Positions 14,689 to 56,325 of a stretch of DNA of 64,000 bases are shown one piece after another. Within the stretch, counting starts at the first letter, position 1; each line of letters starts with the position of its first letter. The notes under the pieces are model-generated. The model was given only the letters and a program-made list of their open reading frames with translations, was not told the DNA's origin and ran no database searches. A program made the position numbers and the translations under genes. The stretch comes from Candidatus Levybacteria bacterium CG2_30_37_29 (GTDB taxonomy: Bacteria; Patescibacteriota; Microgenomatia; Levybacterales; GWA1-39-11). Location: positions 56,839 to 120,838 of the forward strand of contig MNYS01000006.1 of assembly GCA_001873215.1 (NCBI GenBank). The letters run 5' to 3'.

Positions 14689-15072
14689 AGTGAATATATT
14701 TTACCATAGCATGGATAGAGAGTGGTTGTTTTTTTCTTGCGTCTTTTAAAAAAGACGCCCAAAACTTCTTGTGAATGAAGCCGGACTATTTTTGTTCGTT
14801 CACTTGTCGGGTGATTTCACCCCTTCCTCGATCCTTCGGACGAGGAATCCCCCTGACGCGTTCACTCACAAAAACTTTACGTCCTAATGCTTCAATCGCA
14901 AGGAGAAAATATGCTGTGAAATGGTGAATTTTTGCAAGATTTTTCCAAGAAAAAACCGCCCTTTGGCAAAACCCGTGTGACGTTGAGGTCACAGGAAATC
15001 GTTTGGGGCGGTTTTTCAACCAAGGGTCACGGTGACATGAGCTTCTCCTTGCGAAGAGTGGTGGTGCCAGAG

Positions 15073-15399
15073 CTAGTCAGGAACGCCAAGACAGAGCTTG
15101 AAGTCCATTCTGGTTATTTCGAGCCTGATCCGCTCTGCGAGTTGTCGTAGATAGAACTGGTCGAGGTCAGTCGTCAGCACGACGGCGTATTCGAAAGGAC
15201 CTGCGACGGTCGTAGTCACTTCGGCGGTTTTTCCCATCATCGCACGGATTTCGTGTGCGACGGTGTTAGCCGTTCCCTTCGTGACTTCGAAGATGGCGTA
15301 TCCTCTCACCAAAGATCTCTTCGATCGGGCTTCGAGCTTCTGTGGAAGACTTCGTCGGTCCACCCGGTGTACACGAGGATTACCTCGTTTCGAATCCAT
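15073..15399 (-). CDS. small protein resembling the Lrp/AsnC C-terminal (RAM/ACT-like) domain, inside the high-GC island
   Basis: GYAIFEVTKGTANTVAHEIRAMMGKTAEVTTTVAGPFEYAVVLTTDLDQF follows a beta-alpha-beta-beta-alpha-beta pattern. GC-rich codon usage unlike its neighbours. Confidence 0.4.
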   Translation of the reverse strand: MDSKRGNPRVHRVDRRSLPQKLEARSKRSLVRGYAIFEVTKGTANTVAHEIRAMMGKTAEVTTTVAGPFEYAVVLTTDLDQFYLRQLAERIRLEITRMDFKLCLGVPD

Positions 15400-15421
15400 C
15401 TGGCGAGCCTTTTGATGCTCT

Positions 15422-15721
15422 TCATTTTAACTTCCGAACGGGCTCGGTCCATCGCTCGATACAATTTCGCGCGGCTTTGTCTTCATCGCGTGCGAAATCA
15501 AGATCTGCGAGGATCTGGTTGACGGTGGCGTGATCGCCCGATGCGTCCGCGAGCACAGATGCTTCTCGTAGCTTGTACTCGAGATCGGCAACGTTCTGTC
15601 GCGCTTCGGCAAGAGCTGTGAGAGCCGAGTAGGCTTCCTCCATTGCGAATGCTACCTGTAGCATCATTCGGGATATACCTCTCCTAGTGTTCGATTGACC
15701 TGACGGATGTCTGTCCGGCAA
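15422..15721 (-). CDS. hypothetical Ala/Arg-rich protein (island)
   Basis: 99-aa helical ORF in the high-GC segment. Overlapping ORFs occur on both strands, so frame choice is uncertain. Confidence 0.3.
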   Translation of the reverse strand: MPDRHPSGQSNTRRGISRMMLQVAFAMEEAYSALTALAEARQNVADLEYKLREASVLADASGDHATVNQILADLDFARDEDKAARNCIERWTEPVRKLK

Positions 15722-16263
15722 GCTTGTCTATGAAGCTCTGAATCCTGGTGTCATCACCTGTTAGAGTAATGGTTGCCACCGTAGGACCAAAGCTTTTTCT
15801 CTGGATTCTAACCCCATCCGGGATGTGTTTGTTGACCCAGCTTGCCACGCGGGTTTGGACGAAGGAGGTGTAATGCACCTTGACTTTCGTTGTCTTGGTA
15901 AACACCTTTCCTCCTACTTGCCGCTGCCGAATGTTTGGCTGTTACCGATCTTAACGCCGTTTGGCTTGCGCCTTGGTTTTGTCGGCGGTTCGACCTTGAC
16001 TCCAGGGATTCCTGGTTTTGTCGTTCGTACGAACCTTGATGGATTATTTGCCACGGAATTGTCCCTCTCCTGCCCGTTTGCTATGTGGGATCTGCGTAGA
16101 AGCGAGATGTGACTGCCGGTTGAGAGAAGGTACACCTCCCCCAAGTGCACTTAACAAAGAGCGTCTTACCATTTTGGAGCTGGACGATCGTGTTAAGCCT
16201 CTTGCACTTTGGGCAAATGGTTTTTTTCCTTTTATCTCTCTTGGCCACCGTGTTTCCCTCCAT

Positions 16264-16497
16264 TCAGACGGTAAGCGTAAGGATCCGTTCGACGGCAAGC
16301 ATGATGCTGCCGATGAAGCTTAAAGCTGCTCCCGCAATAAACGTTATAGCGAGATTCTCGATGACCCAAGGCTCCCAAGAAGGAGATCCTCGAATTGAGA
16401 CGAATCGTTTCAACGAATAAAAAGTAAGAGCTGTAAGTCCCACAAAAGCTCCTCCAATCGTTGAACCCCAAAGTCCCAATATGAATACGACGTGCAC
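16264..16497 (-). CDS. small two-TM membrane protein (island)
   Basis: 77 aa with two hydrophobic helices. Confidence 0.35.
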   Translation of the reverse strand: MHVVFILGLWGSTIGGAFVGLTALTFYSLKRFVSIRGSPSWEPWVIENLAITFIAGAALSFIGSIMLAVERILTLTV

Positions 16498-16507
16498 GAG
16501 TCCCTCC

Positions 16508-16897
16508 CTAATGGTGGTTTTTGTGATAGTGTCCGAGAGTGAGCAGTCCGATGAAGACGGTTCCGATGACGACGCCGGTTATGGCCCGATAGTCAGTGTG
16601 TACTCCATTTTTGTAGGCGTTGTCGATGAGGACAGCGCCGCACAGAAGTGTTAGTACGATAATGGTTCCAAGCCTGTCAAAATAATCCAAGTCTCCCTCC
16701 CTGCGGGGTTGAAAGGTGGTCGTTGACGAGATGCATTGGCTTCCCTTGCCAATCTGACTGTTGATGAATTCATGTCTAAAACACGCGGATTCGCAAATAT
16801 GCAAATTGTCATCTGCTGTCCACGCGTGTGTGACCCAAGTTGTCAAAGAACAAAGCCAAATCCCAAAGCAGGGAAGTGGTCTTGCAAATTGACACAA
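16508..16897 (-). CDS. small membrane protein (island), start uncertain
   Basis: C-terminal half has two TM helices and a His-rich tail. N-terminal part is doubtful. Confidence 0.3.
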   Translation of the reverse strand: MCQFARPLPCFGIWLCSLTTWVTHAWTADDNLHICESACFRHEFINSQIGKGSQCISSTTTFQPRREGDLDYFDRLGTIIVLTLLCGAVLIDNAYKNGVHTDYRAITGVVIGTVFIGLLTLGHYHKNHH

Positions 16898-17162
16898 TCC
16901 CTAAAGACGGATTTGGCGATATAGATGCGATTATAGCACTTTATTAACAAGGAATCAAAAAGACTATAAGATTGTATTTGAGGCTATTGGATCCCAGCTT
17001 CGAACATTATATAGCCTATAGATATTTACTATACACACCCGAGTTCAAGTATCTTTAATAGCTCATAGTGATTTATTACATTTGCAGAGGCTTATAGAGG
17101 TTAGTTGTGTTAAGTAAATCTATCCTCTTGTCAAAACAATCAATGAACGATACTATAAATAT

Positions 17163-20771: not shown

Positions 20772-20858
20772 TTTAGTTTAGGGTATAGTTTTTAGGGTAT
20801 AGGGTTTAGTTTGGAATTATAATTAACTAAACGCTAAACACTAGCAACTAAACGCTTT

Positions 20859-21404
20859 CTAGATTTTCGCAACTTGCAAGAAATCTAATTCTACCGGTGT
20901 TTCACGGCCAAAAATACTTACAAGGACTTTTACTTTTCCCTTGCTTTCGTCAATTGATTCAACGGTTCCAAGAAAATCAGAGAAAGGTCCATCTGTAATT
21001 TTAACTGCTTCTCCCGATGAGAAAGCCGATTTGTAAATAGGCTCTTTCATTTCAACAAACTTTACAATTGCTTCCACTTCGTCATCTCTTACCGGTGTTG
21101 GTTTATTTTGTGTTCCGACAAAACTTGTTACCCCCGGAGTTGTGCGGACAAGAAGCCATGCCTCGTCATCAAGCGCCATTTTTACAAAAATATATCCCGC
21201 AAAAATCTTTTCCTTTACTGTTTCTTTTTTCCCGCCACGAACTTTTACTATTTCTTTTGTCGGGACCAAGACTTCAAAAATGCGTTCCTTAAATCCCATT
21301 GATTCCACGCGCTGCATGAGGGTCTTTGCGACTTTATTCTCGTGCCCCGAGTAGGTGTGGACAATATACCACCGTGGTCTGTTTTCTTGTAATAATGTAT
21401 CCAT
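20859..21404 (-). CDS. nusG: transcription termination/antitermination factor NusG
   Basis: NGN domain (WYIVHTYSGHENKV) and C-terminal KOW domain. Confidence 0.85.
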   Translation of the reverse strand: MDTLLQENRPRWYIVHTYSGHENKVAKTLMQRVESMGFKERIFEVLVPTKEIVKVRGGKKETVKEKIFAGYIFVKMALDDEAWLLVRTTPGVTSFVGTQNKPTPVRDDEVEAIVKFVEMKEPIYKSAFSSGEAVKITDGPFSDFLGTVESIDESKGKVKVLVSIFGRETPVELDFLQVAKI

Positions 21405-21467
21405 ATCAGTTAATTTTCAATTTTAAGTTTTAAGTTTGCGATGACTTTATAACTAGCGAACAATAAG

Positions 21468-21626: not shown

Positions 21627-21780
21627 AGTTTCGGACTTAGAAAGATTATTCTACCACAGAAGTCAGGGTCGTATCAAGGGTAACTTTGTTTTGTCTTACT
21701 TGACAAGGGTTTTGGAGCGTTTTACAATTACAGATACAATCGCGAAAGATACTTAAATAATTATCAATTATAAATTATAA

Positions 21781-21862
21781 ATTTTAAGTGAAATCTAAAT
21801 TTTAAAATTAAAGAATTAAAAATTCATTTAAAATTGAGAATTGAAAATTAAAAATTAATTTT
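21781..21862. repeat. AT-rich AATTGAAAATT-type repeat cluster (intergenic, upstream of galU)
   Basis: aaattgagaattgaaaattaaaaatt and related units. Same family as 25524-25557, 26742-26777 (inverted), 29848-29912 and 40201-40234. Confidence 0.55.
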
Positions 21863-25340: not shown

Positions 25341-27047
25341 ATGATGGATATAAAAGAACATATTGCAGGAAAACTTAAGGCGATTTTGACTGAATTAAAG
25401 TTTGAAGGTGTGCCGGAAATAAAAATATCGGATAATCCCGAGCATGGCGATTACTATACAAATTTAGCCATGCGTCTTGCAAAACAATCCGGAAAAAATC
25501 CACTGGAAATTGCCGAAGAGCTTAAATTGAAAATTGAAAATTTAAAATTGAAAATTCTCGACAGAGTCGAAGCTGTCAAACCGGGATTTATTAATTTTTG
25601 GGTTTCTGAAAAGTATCTGCTGGAAAATTTAAGTTCGATTGTTGACAAAAAAGAAGAATTCGGAAAAGGGAGTTTGTTCACAAGCAAAAAAGTAATGGTT
25701 GAATTTACGGATCCAAATCCTCTTAAGGAATTTCACATAGGTCATCTCTACAGTAATGCGGTGGGAGAGAGTCTTGCGCGTTTATTCGAGTCTCAAAGTG
25801 CGGAAGTTTGGAGAGTGTGTTATCAGGGGGATGTAGGACTTCATGTTGCAAAAGCGCTTTACGGAATATTAAATCACAGTGAAGGTATTAAGAGCTTTGA
25901 AGACAAACCGCTTTCGGTTCGCGCAAAATTTTTAGGCGAAACATATGCGGAAGGCGCAAAAGCTTATGAAAATGACGAAGATGCCAAAAAAGAAATTGAG
26001 AGTTTGAATAAAAAGGTATACGAGAAAGATGCATCTATTTTTCCTTTGTATGAAATAGCAAAAGGGTGGAGTCTTGAATATTTTGAGACGATTTATCAAA
26101 AACTTGGGACAAAGTTTAAACGCTATTATTTTGAATCAGAAGCAGGTGTTGTAGGTTTGAAAATTGTGAAACAACACATCGGCGATATTTTCGCAGAAGA
26201 TAAAGGCTCTGTCATTTTTCCAAAAGAAAAGTCAGGCCTTCACACGCGGGTTTTTGTAAATTCGTTGGGGCTTCCGACATACGAAGCAAAAGAGCTTGGT
26301 CTTGCGCCCACAAAATACAAAGATTTCCCCTACGACTTATCAGTAATTGTGACGGGAAATGAAATTAATGAATATTTTAAAGTTTTGCTGAAGGCTTTGT
26401 CATTGATCGAGCCTAGTTTGGCCGCTAAAACAAAACACATTTCTCATGGGATGGTTAGATTGCCCAGCGGAAAAATGTCCAGTAGAACAGGAGATATAAT
26501 TGCCGGAGACGCACTTATTGATGAAGTAGAGAATAGAATTCAGAAATCATATCCTGATGTTACAAAAGAGGTCATATCAAAAATTGCCGTTTGTGCCGTA
26601 AAATACGCACTTCTTAAGTCAAATATCGGAGGAGACATAACTTTCTCTTTTGAAGAATCTATTAATTTAAACGGAAATTCAGGACCGTATCTTCAATATA
26701 CGTATGTAAGGACGCAAAGTGTTCTGGGCAAGGCAAAAAATAATAATTTTCAATTTTCAATTTTAAATTTTCAATTAAATGAGGAAGAGTTAAATGTTCT
26801 AAGATTGTTATCAATATATCAACAAATTGCTTTAGAGGCAGCAGAAAAGTACTCACCTAATCTGGTTGCAAATTACCTTTTTGAACTATCTCAAAAGTTT
26901 AATCTTTTCTATCAGAAGCATTCTATACTTACGCCGGAAGAAGGTAAAGAGATTCGAGATTTTCGTTTAAGTTTAACTTCTGCCGTAGGCCAAGTCCTCA
27001 AAAACGGCCTTCAACTTCTCGGGATCGAAACGGTTGAGAAGATGTAA
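25341..27047 (+). CDS. argS: arginine--tRNA ligase
   Basis: Class I HIGH motif (HIGHLYSN), MSSR (KMSKS-type) motif, DALR anticodon-binding C-terminus. Contains two in-frame AT-rich repeat insertions (25524-25557 and 26742-26777). Confidence 0.9.
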   Translation: MMDIKEHIAGKLKAILTELKFEGVPEIKISDNPEHGDYYTNLAMRLAKQSGKNPLEIAEELKLKIENLKLKILDRVEAVKPGFINFWVSEKYLLENLSSIVDKKEEFGKGSLFTSKKVMVEFTDPNPLKEFHIGHLYSNAVGESLARLFESQSAEVWRVCYQGDVGLHVAKALYGILNHSEGIKSFEDKPLSVRAKFLGETYAEGAKAYENDEDAKKEIESLNKKVYEKDASIFPLYEIAKGWSLEYFETIYQKLGTKFKRYYFESEAGVVGLKIVKQHIGDIFAEDKGSVIFPKEKSGLHTRVFVNSLGLPTYEAKELGLAPTKYKDFPYDLSVIVTGNEINEYFKVLLKALSLIEPSLAAKTKHISHGMVRLPSGKMSSRTGDIIAGDALIDEVENRIQKSYPDVTKEVISKIAVCAVKYALLKSNIGGDITFSFEESINLNGNSGPYLQYTYVRTQSVLGKAKNNNFQFSILNFQLNEEELNVLRLLSIYQQIALEAAEKYSPNLVANYLFELSQKFNLFYQKHSILTPEEGKEIRDFRLSLTSAVGQVLKNGLQLLGIETVEKM

Positions 27048-27250
27048 AATTAGTGGCTGTTATTTCCAGAACTTGAAAGGTAAGACGTAGCATGAGATAA
27101 TATAAAAATACTGGACGGTAGAGAATAGAATGTAGAAGATTGTGTTTGAGGGTTGAAAATATGAGATAGGGAATTTAAAATTTCTATTTTCCAGTTTCCA
27201 TCTTCAAAAAACCATTTTCTATTGTCAATTATCTATCGTCAATTTATTTT

Positions 27251-29786: not shown

Positions 29787-29847
29787 CGCGCTTTTGTTCA
29801 TTTCGTTTTTCAATAAAAGCGTTGAAGAATATCTTACAGAGTAATCT

Positions 29848-29912
29848 TCAAATTTCTAATTTTAAATTTACAATTTTCAATCAATTTTTAATTTTTCAAT
29901 TATTATTAATGC
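29848..29912. repeat. AT-rich AATTTTCAATT-type repeat cluster (intergenic, inverted orientation)
   Basis: aatttctaattttaaatttacaattttcaatcaatttttaatttttcaatt. Confidence 0.55.
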
Positions 29913-38317: not shown

Positions 38318-38722
38318 ATGTTTGTTAAGTATTTTTTCTTCTTCGCGCTTTTTATACTTGCTTTTTTTGAGTCAACGATATTTTCTTTCCCGATTTTTTT
38401 TACCTGCTCAATTTTACTTTTTATTTTGTATCCAACAAAAGATTTATATATCACGATTTTTTTCGGAGCGCTCTTTTTAGATGTATTAAAAGCACAATCC
38501 ATAGGAACAACGTCACTTTTTATTTTTCTAGCTTTTTTGCTTCTTACCTTTATAAATAGATTTTTAAACCTTAAAGAACCAAAAACCTTAGCATTTTTTA
38601 TTTTGGTATTTAGTATTTTATATTCTTCAATTTTTTCATACCCCTTTTCATTCATTTATTATTCGGTTTTTTTCTTAGCGCTATTTTTTGGAATGACGTA
38701 TTTTAAAAGACGAGTTTTATGA
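38318..38722 (+). CDS. mreD: rod shape-determining protein MreD (small polytopic membrane protein)
   Basis: 134 aa, about five TM helices. Positioned between mreC and mrdA. Confidence 0.5.
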   Translation: MFVKYFFFFALFILAFFESTIFSFPIFFTCSILLFILYPTKDLYITIFFGALFLDVLKAQSIGTTSLFIFLAFLLLTFINRFLNLKEPKTLAFFILVFSILYSSIFSYPFSFIYYSVFFLALFFGMTYFKRRVL

Positions 38723-40482
38723 AAAAGGTTGGTATTGCTTTCGGAGATTTTGTAACGGAAGAGAGAATGAATAGACGTCGTGGTGGGGGAAGTGGTGCAA
38801 TCGGTGAAATATTAGGAGTTTTCCCTCTTTTTGTGCTTGGGATTGCTTTTTCATTTCTTTTTGCGCGCCTTTTTTACATTCAAATTATAAGAGGTGATTA
38901 TTATAAAAAACTTTCAGATTCCAACCGTACCCTAACAAAAATACTTCCAGCTCCCCGTGGGATTATTTTTGATCATACTGGAAAAAAACTAGTTAGCAAT
39001 TCACCCGCATTTTTTATTCTTGACAAAGGTGTAGTAAAAAATCTTGATGAAAATGAGGCGCTTTCCAGGCTCTCACTTGGTGTGCCGGTTGAAAATGAAA
39101 TAAAAAGAGAATACTTATATAAAGATGCGGCGGCCCATGTTTTGGGTTATGTCGGGAAAGTTTCAAGTGAAGAAGTAAATCTTCCTGCATTTGAAGATTA
39201 CGAAACTACTGATGACGCTGGAAAAACGGGTCTTGAAAAAGAATATGAAACAGTGTTGCATGGGAAAAACGGACGCGAATTATTTGAAGTAGATTCAAAA
39301 GGAAAAATTGTAAAAAAGCTTGGACGGCAGGATCCGACGGACGGAAAAAATATTACCACAACCCTTGATCTTACCATTCAGCTTGCCGCTTATAATGCAA
39401 TGAAAAATGTCAAAAAAGGCGCTGTTGTTGTATCAGACCCGCGGGATGGAGGAATTCGCGCGCTTTTTTCAAAGCCTTCTTTTGACCCAAATATTTTTAT
39501 AAGGTCTAAAAATTATGAAGGTATTGGTGATTATAAAACGCGCGAATCTATTCTTTTGGACTCTGAAAATAATCCGCTTTTAAATCGTGCAATTGGTGGA
39601 GTGTATCCGCCGGGATCTACATTTAAGTTGGTTACGGCGATTGCGTCACTTGAAAAAGGCGCGATTAATCCTTCTACAAAAATTACCGACACTGGAATTC
39701 TTAAGGTTGGAGATTTTTCTTTTGGGAATTGGTACTTTTTGCAGTATGGAAAAACAGATGGGGAGATTGACATTGTAGGTGCTATAAAACGTTCAAATGA
39801 CATATTTTTCTATAAAGCCGCAGAAGGTGCGGGAGTTGATTTTATATCGTCGTGGGCAAAAAATTTGGGACTTGGTGAGCGGCTTGGAATAGATTTACAG
39901 GGTGAAGTTGCGGGTACTGTTCCGACACCCGAATGGAAAGAAAAAACACTCGGTGAACAATGGTATCTTGGGGATACATATAATTACGGAATAGGTCAAG
40001 GATATTTATTGACAACACCTCTTCAGGTAAATTTTTGGACGAGCGTTTTTGCAAACGACGGAACGCTTTACCGCCCGCATTTAATTGACGGTAAAAAAGA
40101 AACTATTAAAAAGAATTTTTTAAAAAAAGAATATGTGGATTTGGTCCGCGAGGGAATGCGGCAGTCGTGTGATGCGGGTGGGGTTGCATGGCCATTTTTT
40201 CAATTCAAAGTTGAAAATTCAAAGTTGAAAGTTGATGGAATAGATTATGTTGATGCGAGTTCCGGTAGCGCAAAAATGGTTCAAATTAAACTCGGATGTA
40301 AGACGGGAACTGCGGAAATTGGCGGAAAAGAAACAAAGCCTCATGCATGGATTACGGTTTTTGCGCCGTTTTATCATCCCGAAGTTGTTGTTACGGTGTT
40401 AGTTGAAAATGGAGGAGAAGGATCTTCATTCGCCGGCCCCATCGCAAAAGAAATCCTCACAAAATACTTCGAGGCAAAATAA
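38719..40482 (+). CDS. mrdA: penicillin-binding protein 2 (peptidoglycan D,D-transpeptidase)
   Basis: PGSTFK (SxxK), SxN, and KTGTAE motifs. Contains an in-frame repeat insertion FQFKVENSKLKV at 40201-40234. Confidence 0.85.
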   Translation: MKKVGIAFGDFVTEERMNRRRGGGSGAIGEILGVFPLFVLGIAFSFLFARLFYIQIIRGDYYKKLSDSNRTLTKILPAPRGIIFDHTGKKLVSNSPAFFILDKGVVKNLDENEALSRLSLGVPVENEIKREYLYKDAAAHVLGYVGKVSSEEVNLPAFEDYETTDDAGKTGLEKEYETVLHGKNGRELFEVDSKGKIVKKLGRQDPTDGKNITTTLDLTIQLAAYNAMKNVKKGAVVVSDPRDGGIRALFSKPSFDPNIFIRSKNYEGIGDYKTRESILLDSENNPLLNRAIGGVYPPGSTFKLVTAIASLEKGAINPSTKITDTGILKVGDFSFGNWYFLQYGKTDGEIDIVGAIKRSNDIFFYKAAEGAGVDFISSWAKNLGLGERLGIDLQGEVAGTVPTPEWKEKTLGEQWYLGDTYNYGIGQGYLLTTPLQVNFWTSVFANDGTLYRPHLIDGKKETIKKNFLKKEYVDLVREGMRQSCDAGGVAWPFFQFKVENSKLKVDGIDYVDASSGSAKMVQIKLGCKTGTAEIGGKETKPHAWITVFAPFYHPEVVVTVLVENGGEGSSFAGPIAKEILTKYFEAK

Positions 40483-55980: not shown

Positions 55981-56325
55981 AATATTTGTTTACATGAAAA
56001 AAAATTCCTCTGCTTCGTAGCTGTAAAAGGAATTCTTAAATATCTGACTATGGCAGTATATTATATTTCAATGAGCTTAAATTATCAAGGAAAATTATCC
56101 TTGATAATTCTGGCTTGAATTTTCAGCTTACTTCTGCTAGAATACAAATTAGATCCAGAGACAATAAGTTCTGCCAGCTGGCGGATTAAACAAGAAAGCT
56201 TATCGAGGAAACGTTCAGTTTAAAATTAAAAGTTTAAAGTGAAAAGTTGAAGCGTCTTTGGGAAGGCGCTTTTTTATTGGTTTTAAACTAATAACTAACG
56301 ACTAATAACTTTTAGCTAATAGATT

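What the first reader, a model, noticed from the sequence alone, without database searches (positions are those of the whole stretch)
25524..26777. Short AT-rich repeat (AATTGAAAATT family) inserted in-frame into argS twice in opposite orientations and into PBP2, with intergenic copies
Directly visible: 25524-25557 (aaattgaaaattgaaaatttaaaattgaaaattc) lies inside argS and encodes ELKLKIENLKLKIL. 26742-26777 is its reverse complement (aataattttcaattttcaattttaaattttcaatt), also inside argS, encoding NNFQFSILNFQLNEE. 40201-40234 (caattcaaagttgaaaattcaaagttgaaagttg) lies inside mrdA encoding FQFKVENSKLKV. Related clusters occur in intergenic DNA at 21781-21862 and 29848-29912. All coding insertions keep the reading frame. 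From established knowledge, in-frame palindromic/repeat elements in essential genes are known from Rickettsia (RPEs) but are otherwise uncommon. Inference: this is a mobile or slippage-generated short repeat that tolerates, or creates, low-complexity surface loops in essential enzymes.
Basis: seen in the sequence. Interest (0 to 1): 0.6.

Follow-up and report, generated by a model that had tools for sequence, protein, structure and literature searches.

The report
Seven-base tandem repeats inside essential genes
Two variable linkers of the arginyl-tRNA synthetase gene of this groundwater Levybacteria genome are written as tandem 7-base repeats sharing a 25-base core in opposite orientations. 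This is a local case of an excess of 7-base microsatellites seen across candidate-phyla-radiation bacteria, not an insertion of a Rickettsia-style mobile palindrome, and the supposed PBP2 copy is conserved coding sequence.

Summary
argS (25341-27047) carries (AAATTGA)x4.7 at 25524-25556 and its reverse complement at 26745-26776, with a perfect 25-nt inverted core. Related arrays lie in intergenic DNA.

- **Not insertions.** Both argS linkers have the same length as in orthologs, including E. coli.
- **Not palindromic.** Each arm folds at only about -2 kcal/mol.
- **mrdA is not a copy.** FQFKVENSKLKV is conserved in about 110 orthologs, which meets the finder's own refutation test.

The units are 7 nt, and period 7 is the only enriched tandem period. 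The window has 6 such arrays against 0 in shuffles. In 1.28 Mb from 80 other CPR genomes there are 91 arrays against 2 or fewer for every other period from 4 to 12. About three quarters lie inside genes. In ArgRS they recur, with unrelated units, at the same five variable linkers.

Units that contain a stop triplet carry a one-base patch exactly where the stop would be in frame (here TGA to TTA). The same patch rides along in the inverted copy, where it is not needed, which suggests copying.

Best reading: heptanucleotide simple-sequence arrays, a class known since 1990/2007, made by a DNA-level process and kept only where proteins tolerate them. Their abundance inside essential genes appears unreported.

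The parts
25341..27047 (+). argS (arginine--tRNA ligase, 568 aa), host of the two arrays
   Evidence: Pfam Arg_tRNA_synt_N, tRNA-synt_1d and DALR_1. Source names it 'arginine--tRNA ligase, Candidatus Levybacteria'.
25524..25556 (+). Array 1: (AAATTGA)x4.7, codons 62-72 (KLKIENLKLKI). The third unit is AAATTTA, a G>T patch that removes an in-frame TGA.
   Evidence: TRF and codon view. Lies in helix 54-67 plus turn 68-72, pLDDT about 95.
26745..26776 (-). Array 2: the same unit on the opposite strand, codons 469-479 (NFQFSILNFQL). It carries the same T-variant unit although no stop needs avoiding here.
   Evidence: TRF. Lies in coil 465-480 between the catalytic and DALR domains, pLDDT 70-74.
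25532..25556 (+). 25-nt perfect core shared with 26752-26776 as an inverted repeat 1.2 kb apart
   Evidence: The inter-arm RNA duplex is -24.7 kcal/mol against -6.7 +/- 2.5 for shuffles.
26752..26776 (-). Inverted partner of the 25-nt core
40202..40235 (+). mrdA (38719-40482) stretch with period 14/7, encoding FQFKVENSKLKV. The peptide is conserved and is not an insertion. The DNA periodicity is stronger than the peptide requires.
   Evidence: TRF. Ortholog alignment shows the same length, 37 against a median of 37 aa. Codon resampling gives P=0.007 for period 7 and P=5e-5 for period 14.
21825..21862 (+). Intergenic AAATTGA-like array ending 1 nt before the ATG of a nucleotidyl-transferase gene (21863)
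21408..21440 (-). Intergenic array (AAACTTA/AAATTGA units on the - strand) ending 4 nt before the start codon of ORF 20859-21404 (-)
21753..21793 (.). Intergenic array with unit AATTATA
29847..29905 (-). Intergenic array between the convergent ndk-like and Fic genes. On the - strand it matches 28 of 34 bases of array 1, including the AAATTTA unit.
27172..27200 (.). Weaker period-7 stretch between argS and the M16 peptidase gene

Best explanation
The argS segments are heptanucleotide simple-sequence arrays: tandem 7-nt units belonging to a small genome-specific family. They are made by a DNA-level, period-7-biased process, namely replication misalignment or template switching that copies sequence from 7 nt away or from another array. 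Selection then filters them. In essential genes they survive only in linkers whose sequence is free and whose length is kept, in an orientation or variant without in-frame stops. There they are simply translated as 7-residue-periodic low-complexity peptide. I see no evidence that they serve the cell.

Shown: tandem 7-nt structure, period-7 specificity, recurrence across CPR genomes, restriction to variable linkers, no net length change, stop patching, and shared cores.

Inferred: the misalignment or template-switch mechanism and the neutrality.
For: - Period 7 is the only enriched tandem period in the window. The same holds in 1.28 Mb from 80 other CPR genomes: 91 arrays against 2 or fewer for each other period. 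A 50-kb E. coli control has none.
- Units are very diverse, including GC-rich ones. AAATTGA arrays are no commoner than same-composition controls in IMG/VR: 30 against 41, 42 and 14 stretches. The period is special, not the motif.
- The two orientations encode unrelated peptides (K/L/I/E against N/F/Q/S), so the shared feature is DNA, not protein.
- Across 81 ArgRS genes there are 40 arrays in 27 genes. Thirty-seven site occupancies fall in five variable linkers that make up 14% of the protein, with unrelated units. LeuRS genes also carry several.
- Genomes whose ArgRS is 76-80% identical do not share the arrays they carry, so turnover is fast. The closest orthologs (about 70%) lack the arrays.
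- 30 of 88 arrays inside genes have a stop triplet in the consensus unit. In those examined, the unit where the stop would be in frame carries a one-base change. Stop-containing units make up 34% on the sense strand, 64% on the antisense strand and about 70% in intergenic DNA.
- In mrdA, synonymous and free positions are arranged into a perfect 14-nt repeat more than codon usage predicts (P=5e-5).
- Literature, as relayed by PMC4679880 and PMC4692102: Mrazek et al. 2007 found heptanucleotide repeats to be the most abundant long simple-sequence repeats in most prokaryotic genomes, and proposed polymerase slippage tied to a 7-nt contact length.
Against: - Stepwise +/-7-nt slippage breaks the frame, so it cannot build an array inside an essential gene. 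The model needs misalignment without a length change, or copying of whole blocks.
- No copy-number variation was seen among six population contigs. They are 99.86-100% identical, so the test has little power.
- Identical blocks at distant sites point to copying rather than local slippage. These are the 25-nt core with its passenger T variant and a 30-nt block including a non-periodic prefix at two argS sites in L030.
- Units are shared within a genome about 8 times more often than between genomes (7.6% against 0.9%).
- Intergenic arrays are about 3-fold enriched per base, and 13 of 32 abut start codons. This leaves room for a function in leader regions.
Confidence: 0.6

Rival explanations
1. 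An ultra-small mobile or dispersed repeat, comparable to Rickettsia RPEs or Nostoc 21-27-nt SDRs. A preformed block of about 33 nt is copied by dedicated machinery into permissive sites, in either orientation, in coding and non-coding DNA.
For: - The 25-nt identical core carries the same internal variant in two argS sites, and a third related intergenic copy exists.
- A 30-nt identical block sits at two argS sites in L030.
- Units form genome-specific families.
- Several same-unit arrays occur per contig in metagenomes.
Against: - There is no net insertion at either argS site.
- There are no terminal repeats and no hairpin. I saw no target-site duplications by inspecting the aligned flanks.
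- Unit sequences are extremely diverse, and only the period is shared.
- No candidate enzyme was identified.
Confidence: 0.15
2. The arrays are functional cis-elements. They could be binding sites for a protein or for ribosomal protein S1 or Csp-type RNA binders, as proposed for TAACTGA repeats. Alternatively, the two inverted arms could pair in the argS mRNA to form a 25-bp duplex that controls stability or translation.
For: - Four window arrays and 13 of 32 intergenic CPR arrays end within 25 nt of a start codon, including those of rplK and rplJ.
- The inter-arm duplex is -24.7 kcal/mol against -6.7 for shuffles.
- MacGregor 2015 proposes translational regulation for leader heptamer repeats (PMC4679880).
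Against: - Arrays inside genes have unrelated units in different lineages and are not conserved between close relatives.
- In L014 and L030 the same-unit pairs inside argS are direct, not inverted, so pairing is not general.
- The unit is not over-represented relative to controls.
Confidence: 0.12
3. Chance or protein-level cause. AT-rich codon bias, or selection for particular low-complexity peptides, produces similar-looking DNA with no repeat process involved.
For: - The mrdA peptide is conserved. Even ortholog peptides, coded with this genome's codon usage, give an above-background period-7 score of 0.42 against 0.27.
- The genome is 37% GC.
Against: - Shuffles give zero arrays.
- Only period 7, which is not a multiple of 3, is enriched.
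- The same DNA in two orientations gives unrelated peptides.
- GC-rich units occur in 50% GC genomes.
- Resampling codons for the same peptides rarely reaches the observed periodicity (P=0.007-0.02).
Confidence: 0.06
4. An intragenic invertible segment. The 25-nt inverted repeats flank the 1.2-kb catalytic core of argS and mediate inversion.
For: A perfect 25-nt inverted repeat brackets residues 73-468.
Against: - All 17 contigs that carry the gene encode the identical uninverted protein. Six aligned contigs are collinear without rearrangement.
- Inversion would destroy a single-copy essential enzyme.
- Other lineages have direct, not inverted, pairs.
Confidence: 0.02

Closest known systems
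Heptanucleotide long simple-sequence repeats of prokaryotes (Mrazek, Guo & Shah 2007, as summarised in PMC4679880 and PMC4692102)
   Same: Tandem 7-nt units. Period 7 dominates all other long simple-sequence periods. Units are diverse. The proposed origin is polymerase misalignment.
   Different: That survey reported that units whose length is a multiple of three are the ones most likely to be found in coding regions. Here 73% of arrays are inside genes, including aminoacyl-tRNA synthetases, at recurrent linker positions. The CPR lineage was not known at the time.
Cyanobacterial STRR heptamer repeats (Mazel et al. 1990, cited in PMC4692102) and the GGGAATC / GGGGAYT repeats of Xanthomonas and Nostoc (PMC4692102)
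   Same: Genome-specific families of tandem heptamers dispersed at many loci. Occasional inverted pairs. Function unknown.
   Different: Those are G-rich, mostly intergenic, and found in other phyla. The units here are different and are translated.
TAACTGA direct repeats of marine Beggiatoaceae, Cyanobacteria and Bacteroidetes (MacGregor 2015, PMC4679880)
   Same: Heptamer direct repeats lying a few nucleotides upstream of start codons, including ribosomal-protein genes. Inside ORFs only the stop-free orientation occurs. The rplJ leader here has AACTAAT/AACTAAC units, one base from TAACTGA.
   Different: That system has a single dominant unit, and copies inside ORFs are rare and peripheral. 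Here there are many units, and arrays sit in internal linkers of essential enzymes.
Rickettsia palindromic elements (RPE), from my own knowledge
   Same: Dispersed repeats found in frame inside essential genes, in regions that tolerate them.
   Different: RPEs are about 100-150 bp, palindromic, and add residues. The arrays here are 33-36 nt, tandem, not palindromic and add no length.
Tandem repeats of Borg elements (PMC9879509, abstract only)
   Same: Nucleotide tandem repeats that arise independently, evolve fast, and create low-complexity or disordered protein segments.
   Different: Those occur in archaeal extrachromosomal elements and are reported to be under selection to create disordered regions. 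Here the period is 7 nt, so all three frames of the unit are read in turn, and I see no evidence of selection for the peptide.

Membership tests
Heptanucleotide long simple-sequence repeats (general class) | Head-to-tail tandem copies of a 7-nt unit | tested here: met
   TRF gives period 7, 4.6-4.7 copies, 92% match at both argS sites.
Heptanucleotide long simple-sequence repeats (general class) | Longer and more frequent than composition predicts | tested here: met
   6 arrays against 0 in dinucleotide shuffles. 15 against 0.64 matches for the 19-mer.
Heptanucleotide long simple-sequence repeats (general class) | Period 7 over-represented relative to neighbouring periods | tested here: met
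   In the window, period 7 has 6 arrays and all other periods have 0. In 1.28 Mb of CPR loci, 91 against 2 or fewer.
Heptanucleotide long simple-sequence repeats (general class) | Copy-number polymorphism between strains (slippage in action) | tested here: inconclusive
   Six contigs at 99.86-100% identity show no indel and identical arrays. The divergence is too small to be decisive.
Cyanobacterial STRR families | Specific units (such as CCCCAGT) in heterocystous cyanobacteria | tested here: not met
   The unit here is AAATTGA and the organism is Candidatus Levybacteria. It works like STRR but is not a member.
Rickettsia palindromic element-type in-frame insertion | Palindromic sequence able to form a stable hairpin | tested here: not met
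   Each arm folds at -2.1 or -1.7 kcal/mol.
Rickettsia palindromic element-type in-frame insertion | Adds residues relative to orthologs lacking the element | tested here: not met
   Linker lengths are 18 and 19 aa against medians of 18 and 20. The closest ortholog shows a 36-for-36 nt replacement. E. coli has the same lengths.
Rickettsia palindromic element-type in-frame insertion | Length about 100-150 bp | tested here: not met
   33-36 nt.
TAACTGA-type leader heptamer repeats | Repeats lie within a few nt upstream of a start codon | tested here: not met
   The argS arrays are internal to the gene. Four other window arrays do abut start codons.
Intragenic invertible segment | Both orientations present in the population | tested here: not met
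   17 contigs encode the identical protein. Six aligned contigs are collinear. Reads were not available.
DNA uptake sequence | One short motif dispersed singly at high density through the genome | tested here: not met
   TTGAAAATT occurs 16 times in 64 kb, 8 of them inside the three main arrays.

The most novel reading that the evidence does not exclude
CPR bacteria have an active templated process that writes genome-specific heptamer arrays as whole blocks into permissive sites of essential genes. It could be a template-switching polymerase activity or an unrecognised ultra-small mobile repeat. Its effect would be to keep remodelling the linkers of aminoacyl-tRNA synthetases and other core proteins. 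The 25-nt core with its passenger stop patch, and the 30-nt block duplicated within argS of a Chisholmbacteria genome, would be its footprints.
Probability: 0.18. Interest if true: 0.7.

Novelty: new variant of a known kind. Interest (0 to 1): 0.48.

Why it matters
Why heptanucleotide repeats dominate bacterial long microsatellites has been an open question since 1990/2007. These repeats have been treated as mostly intergenic.

CPR genomes appear to carry them at about 70-90 per Mb, mostly inside genes. They recur at the same linkers of universal enzymes. This gives a natural experiment with built-in read-outs: frame, stop patches and linker length. Those read-outs can separate slippage, transient misalignment and block copying.

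There are practical consequences too. The arrays inflate apparent 'CPR-specific' low-complexity segments in core proteins. They can mislead alignments and phylogenies. They also mark which parts of ArgRS, LeuRS and PBP2 are free of sequence constraint.

Tried and rejected
- **RPE-like palindrome.** Rejected: no hairpin and no added residues.
- **Insertion relative to orthologs.** Rejected for both argS sites and for mrdA. One other ArgRS site (residues 43-54) does show arrays as insertions in other genomes, 21 against 10 aa.
- **AAATTGA as a special conserved motif.** The metagenome scan first suggested this, because the array occurs even in contigs of 60-66% GC. It was rejected after same-composition control units proved equally common in IMG/VR.
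- **Known RNA families.** Rfam finds only four tRNAs in the window and nothing at the arrays.
- **Hypervariability between strains.** Not seen.
- **Inverton.** No support.
- **Literature.** Searches for heptamer or simple-sequence repeats in CPR/Patescibacteria found nothing relevant in the held library. Mrazek 2007 itself is not held and is cited through two papers that summarise it.
- **PDB sequence alignment of PBP2.** Ambiguous around the segment and not used.

Full report
**What is there.** The window comes from a Candidatus Levybacteria genome (CPR/Microgenomates) assembled from groundwater metagenomes. The ArgRS protein is found unchanged on 17 contigs, and its sources name it arginine--tRNA ligase of Levybacteria MAGs. 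The ORF 25341-27047 is argS and 38719-40482 is a PBP2-type transpeptidase.

TRF reports the following:
- 25524-25556: period 7, 4.7 copies, 92% match.
- 26745-26776: period 7, 4.6 copies, 92% match.
- 40202-40230: period 14, 2.1 copies, 100% match.

The two argS arrays share a perfect 25-nt core in opposite orientation, at 25532-25556 and 26752-26776. This is far beyond chance. The 19-mer with up to 3 mismatches has 15 matches against 0.64 expected.

**Period 7 is the signal, not the motif.** I scanned the window for windows of four copies with at least 85% self-match at periods 4-15. Period 7 gave six arrays. Every other period gave none, and so did dinucleotide shuffles.

The other period-7 arrays in the window have different units: AATTATA, AAACTTA, TAGGGTA, TTAAAAG and AACTAAT.

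I then fetched 80 argS loci from other CPR genomes, 1.28 Mb in total.
- At the 85% threshold, period 7 gave 91 arrays. No other period from 4 to 12 gave more than 2.
- Units are very diverse and include GC-rich ones in genomes of 50% GC.
- A 50-kb E. coli control around argS has none.
- At the looser 80% threshold there are 119 arrays. Of these, 87 (73%) lie inside long ORFs. Intergenic DNA is still about 3-fold enriched per base (27% of arrays in 10% of the sequence, p=1e-7). Thirteen of the 32 intergenic arrays end within 25 nt of a start codon.

That looked like a special motif. However, same-composition control units are equally common in IMG/VR: 30 stretches for AAATTGA against 41, 42 and 14.

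**The argS arrays are not insertions.**
- In an alignment with 29 orthologs, both arrays sit in non-conserved linkers, and the window protein is no longer than the others.
- Over 81 ArgRS genes, linkers with and without an array have the same length. Site 1 has medians of 20 against 18 aa (p=0.14). Site 2 has 21 against 20 aa (p=0.25). The window has 18 and 19 aa.
- The closest orthologs (about 70% identity) lack arrays. At site 1, conserved flanks bracket a 36-nt block that is simply different sequence, 36 nt for 36 nt.
- E. coli ArgRS has near-identical linker lengths: the same at site 2, and two residues shorter at site 1.

In an AlphaFold model (pLDDT 89.8), array 1 covers residues 62-72. 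This is the end of helix 54-67 plus a turn, with pLDDT about 95. Array 2 covers residues 469-479. This lies in the 16-residue coil between the catalytic and anticodon-binding domains, with pLDDT 70-74.

**The same linkers are hit again and again.** Across the 81 ArgRS genes, 27 carry at least one array, 40 in all. There are 37 site occupancies in five variable linkers: residues 43-54, 58-77, 175-197, 462-482 and 527-541. Together these make up 14% of the protein. Units are unrelated between lineages and occur in both orientations.

Genomes whose ArgRS is 76-80% identical do not share the arrays they carry, so turnover is fast. LeuRS genes next to argS in several loci carry three or four arrays each.

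**The mrdA 'copy' is conserved sequence.** In about 110 same-length orthologs at 54-66% identity, the peptide reads WP(F/L)F-x-FKV(K/E)N-x-x-L(K/P)(I/V)D. It sits at the same position with the same segment length, 37 aa against a median of 37. This meets the finder's own refutation criterion.

One nuance remains. The window's DNA there is more periodic than the peptide requires. Resampling synonymous codons for the same peptide reaches the observed score in only 0.7% of trials for period 7 and 0.005% for period 14. So a DNA-level homogenising process seems to have acted on the free positions of a conserved peptide.

**Footprints of a DNA-level origin filtered by selection.**
- Because 7 and 3 share no common factor, every cyclic triplet of the unit is read as a codon. 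AAATTGA contains TGA. In array 1 the one unit where TGA would be in frame reads AAATTTA instead.
- This is general. Thirty of 88 arrays inside genes have a stop triplet in their consensus unit. In those examined, a one-base change sits exactly at the in-frame unit.
- Stop-containing units make up 34% on the sense strand, 64% on the antisense strand and about 70% in intergenic DNA.
- In metagenomes, pure (AAATTGA)n inside long ORFs is always read on the stop-free strand, as FSIFNFQ.
- The two orientations in argS encode unrelated peptides, so the shared entity is DNA.

**Evidence for copying between sites.**
- Array 2 carries the same T-variant unit although its frame does not need it. The intergenic copy at 29847-29883 carries it too.
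- In a Chisholmbacteria genome (L030), a 30-nt identical block, including a non-periodic prefix, occurs at two argS linkers. In L014 the same unit occupies sites 1 and 2.
- Identical units are shared by 7.6% of array pairs within a locus against 0.9% between loci (permutation p<0.0005). Part of this may reflect genome composition.

**Mechanism.** My best reading (confidence about 0.6) is that these are heptanucleotide simple-sequence arrays. They would be produced by period-7-biased replication misalignment or template switching, and they persist in genes only where sequence is free, length is preserved and stops are avoided.

Simple stepwise slippage cannot be the whole story. A change of +/-7 nt breaks the frame of an essential gene. 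No length change is seen between orthologs. No indel is seen among six near-identical population contigs. Misalignment without a net length change, or copying of whole blocks from another array, is needed. Both are inferences.

Rivals:
- A dedicated mini mobile element (0.15).
- A cis-regulatory role, including a possible 25-bp arm-to-arm mRNA duplex of -24.7 kcal/mol (0.12).
- Codon bias or selection on the peptide (0.06).
- An inverton (0.02).

**Comparison with what is known.** The class is known.
- Mrazek et al. 2007 found heptanucleotide repeats to be the most abundant long simple-sequence repeats and proposed polymerase slippage (as relayed in PMC4679880 and PMC4692102).
- Cyanobacterial STRR heptamers date from 1990 (Mazel et al., cited in PMC4692102).
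- Xanthomonas and Nostoc GGGAATC repeats are described in PMC4692102.
- TAACTGA repeats upstream of start codons are described in PMC4679880.

The arrays here fail the defining features of Rickettsia palindromic elements, which are palindromy, size and added residues.

What differs from the known class is the location. The arrays are mostly inside genes, in essential enzymes, at recurrent linkers, across a whole radiation. My searches of the held literature found no report of this for CPR. The library is incomplete, so this is not proof of novelty.

**Verdict.** I rate it a new variant of a known kind, of moderate interest.

Noticed in passing
window 20776-20809, 21408-21440, 21825-21862, 56286-56321: Heptamer arrays end 1-5 nt before start codons. 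The genes are rplK (L11), the ORF 20859-21404 (-) next to it, a nucleotidyl-transferase gene and rplJ (L10). I saw no obvious Shine-Dalgarno sequence between array and start. The rplJ leader units (AACTAAT/AACTAAC) are one base from the TAACTGA repeats described upstream of ribosomal-protein genes in Beggiatoaceae (PMC4679880).
   Followed up: partly
window 14690-17160: A stretch of about 2.5 kb with higher GC (0.43-0.47 against about 0.37) and no ORF longer than about 130 aa. Rfam gives no match even at E<=0.1. Its nature is unknown. It could be foreign DNA, a decayed gene or an undescribed RNA.
   Followed up: partly
window 20776-20809: The array upstream of rplK contains TTTAGGG-like units (gTTTAGGGtatag...TTTTAGGGtatagggTTTAG). 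This is the same heptamer as plant-type telomere repeats and is probably coincidental.
   Followed up: no
L019:11789-15361 and L021:3372-6392: An IleRS-like gene carries a histidine-phosphatase (His_Phos_1) domain inside it, and a LeuRS gene carries a NUDIX domain inside it. These are whole-domain insertions in CPR aminoacyl-tRNA synthetases.
   Followed up: no
ArgRS orthologs P0024 and P0080, alignment A1 columns about 240-260 (window residues about 176-187): Both carry a similar in-frame extra segment, LCHAE(L/F)xSxS...K(I/M)(L/M)KQ(V/I)(Q/E)D. It looks like a translated dispersed palindromic repeat. This would be a second, different kind of repeat in the same ArgRS linker. P0022 has several further insertions.
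   Followed up: no
L030:10137-11615 (Chisholmbacteria argS, GC 0.50): One argS gene carries four heptamer arrays at four different linkers. The same 30-nt block occurs at two of them, and a third array is the reverse complement of that block's prefix unit (AAATCCG).
   Followed up: partly
L028:11430-11470 and L033:8646-8685: Two genomes whose ArgRS is only 57% identical carry the identical unit (AAAAGTC x4, peptide KVKSQKSKVK) at the same ArgRS linker. This is either convergence on a common unit or transfer.
   Followed up: no
L101:5565-5663, L131, L148, L140 (metagenome contigs): Several unrelated contigs, some at 63% GC, carry two (AAATTGA)n arrays close together. One pair is inverted and 40 nt apart. 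Others are direct pairs inside one ORF.
   Followed up: no
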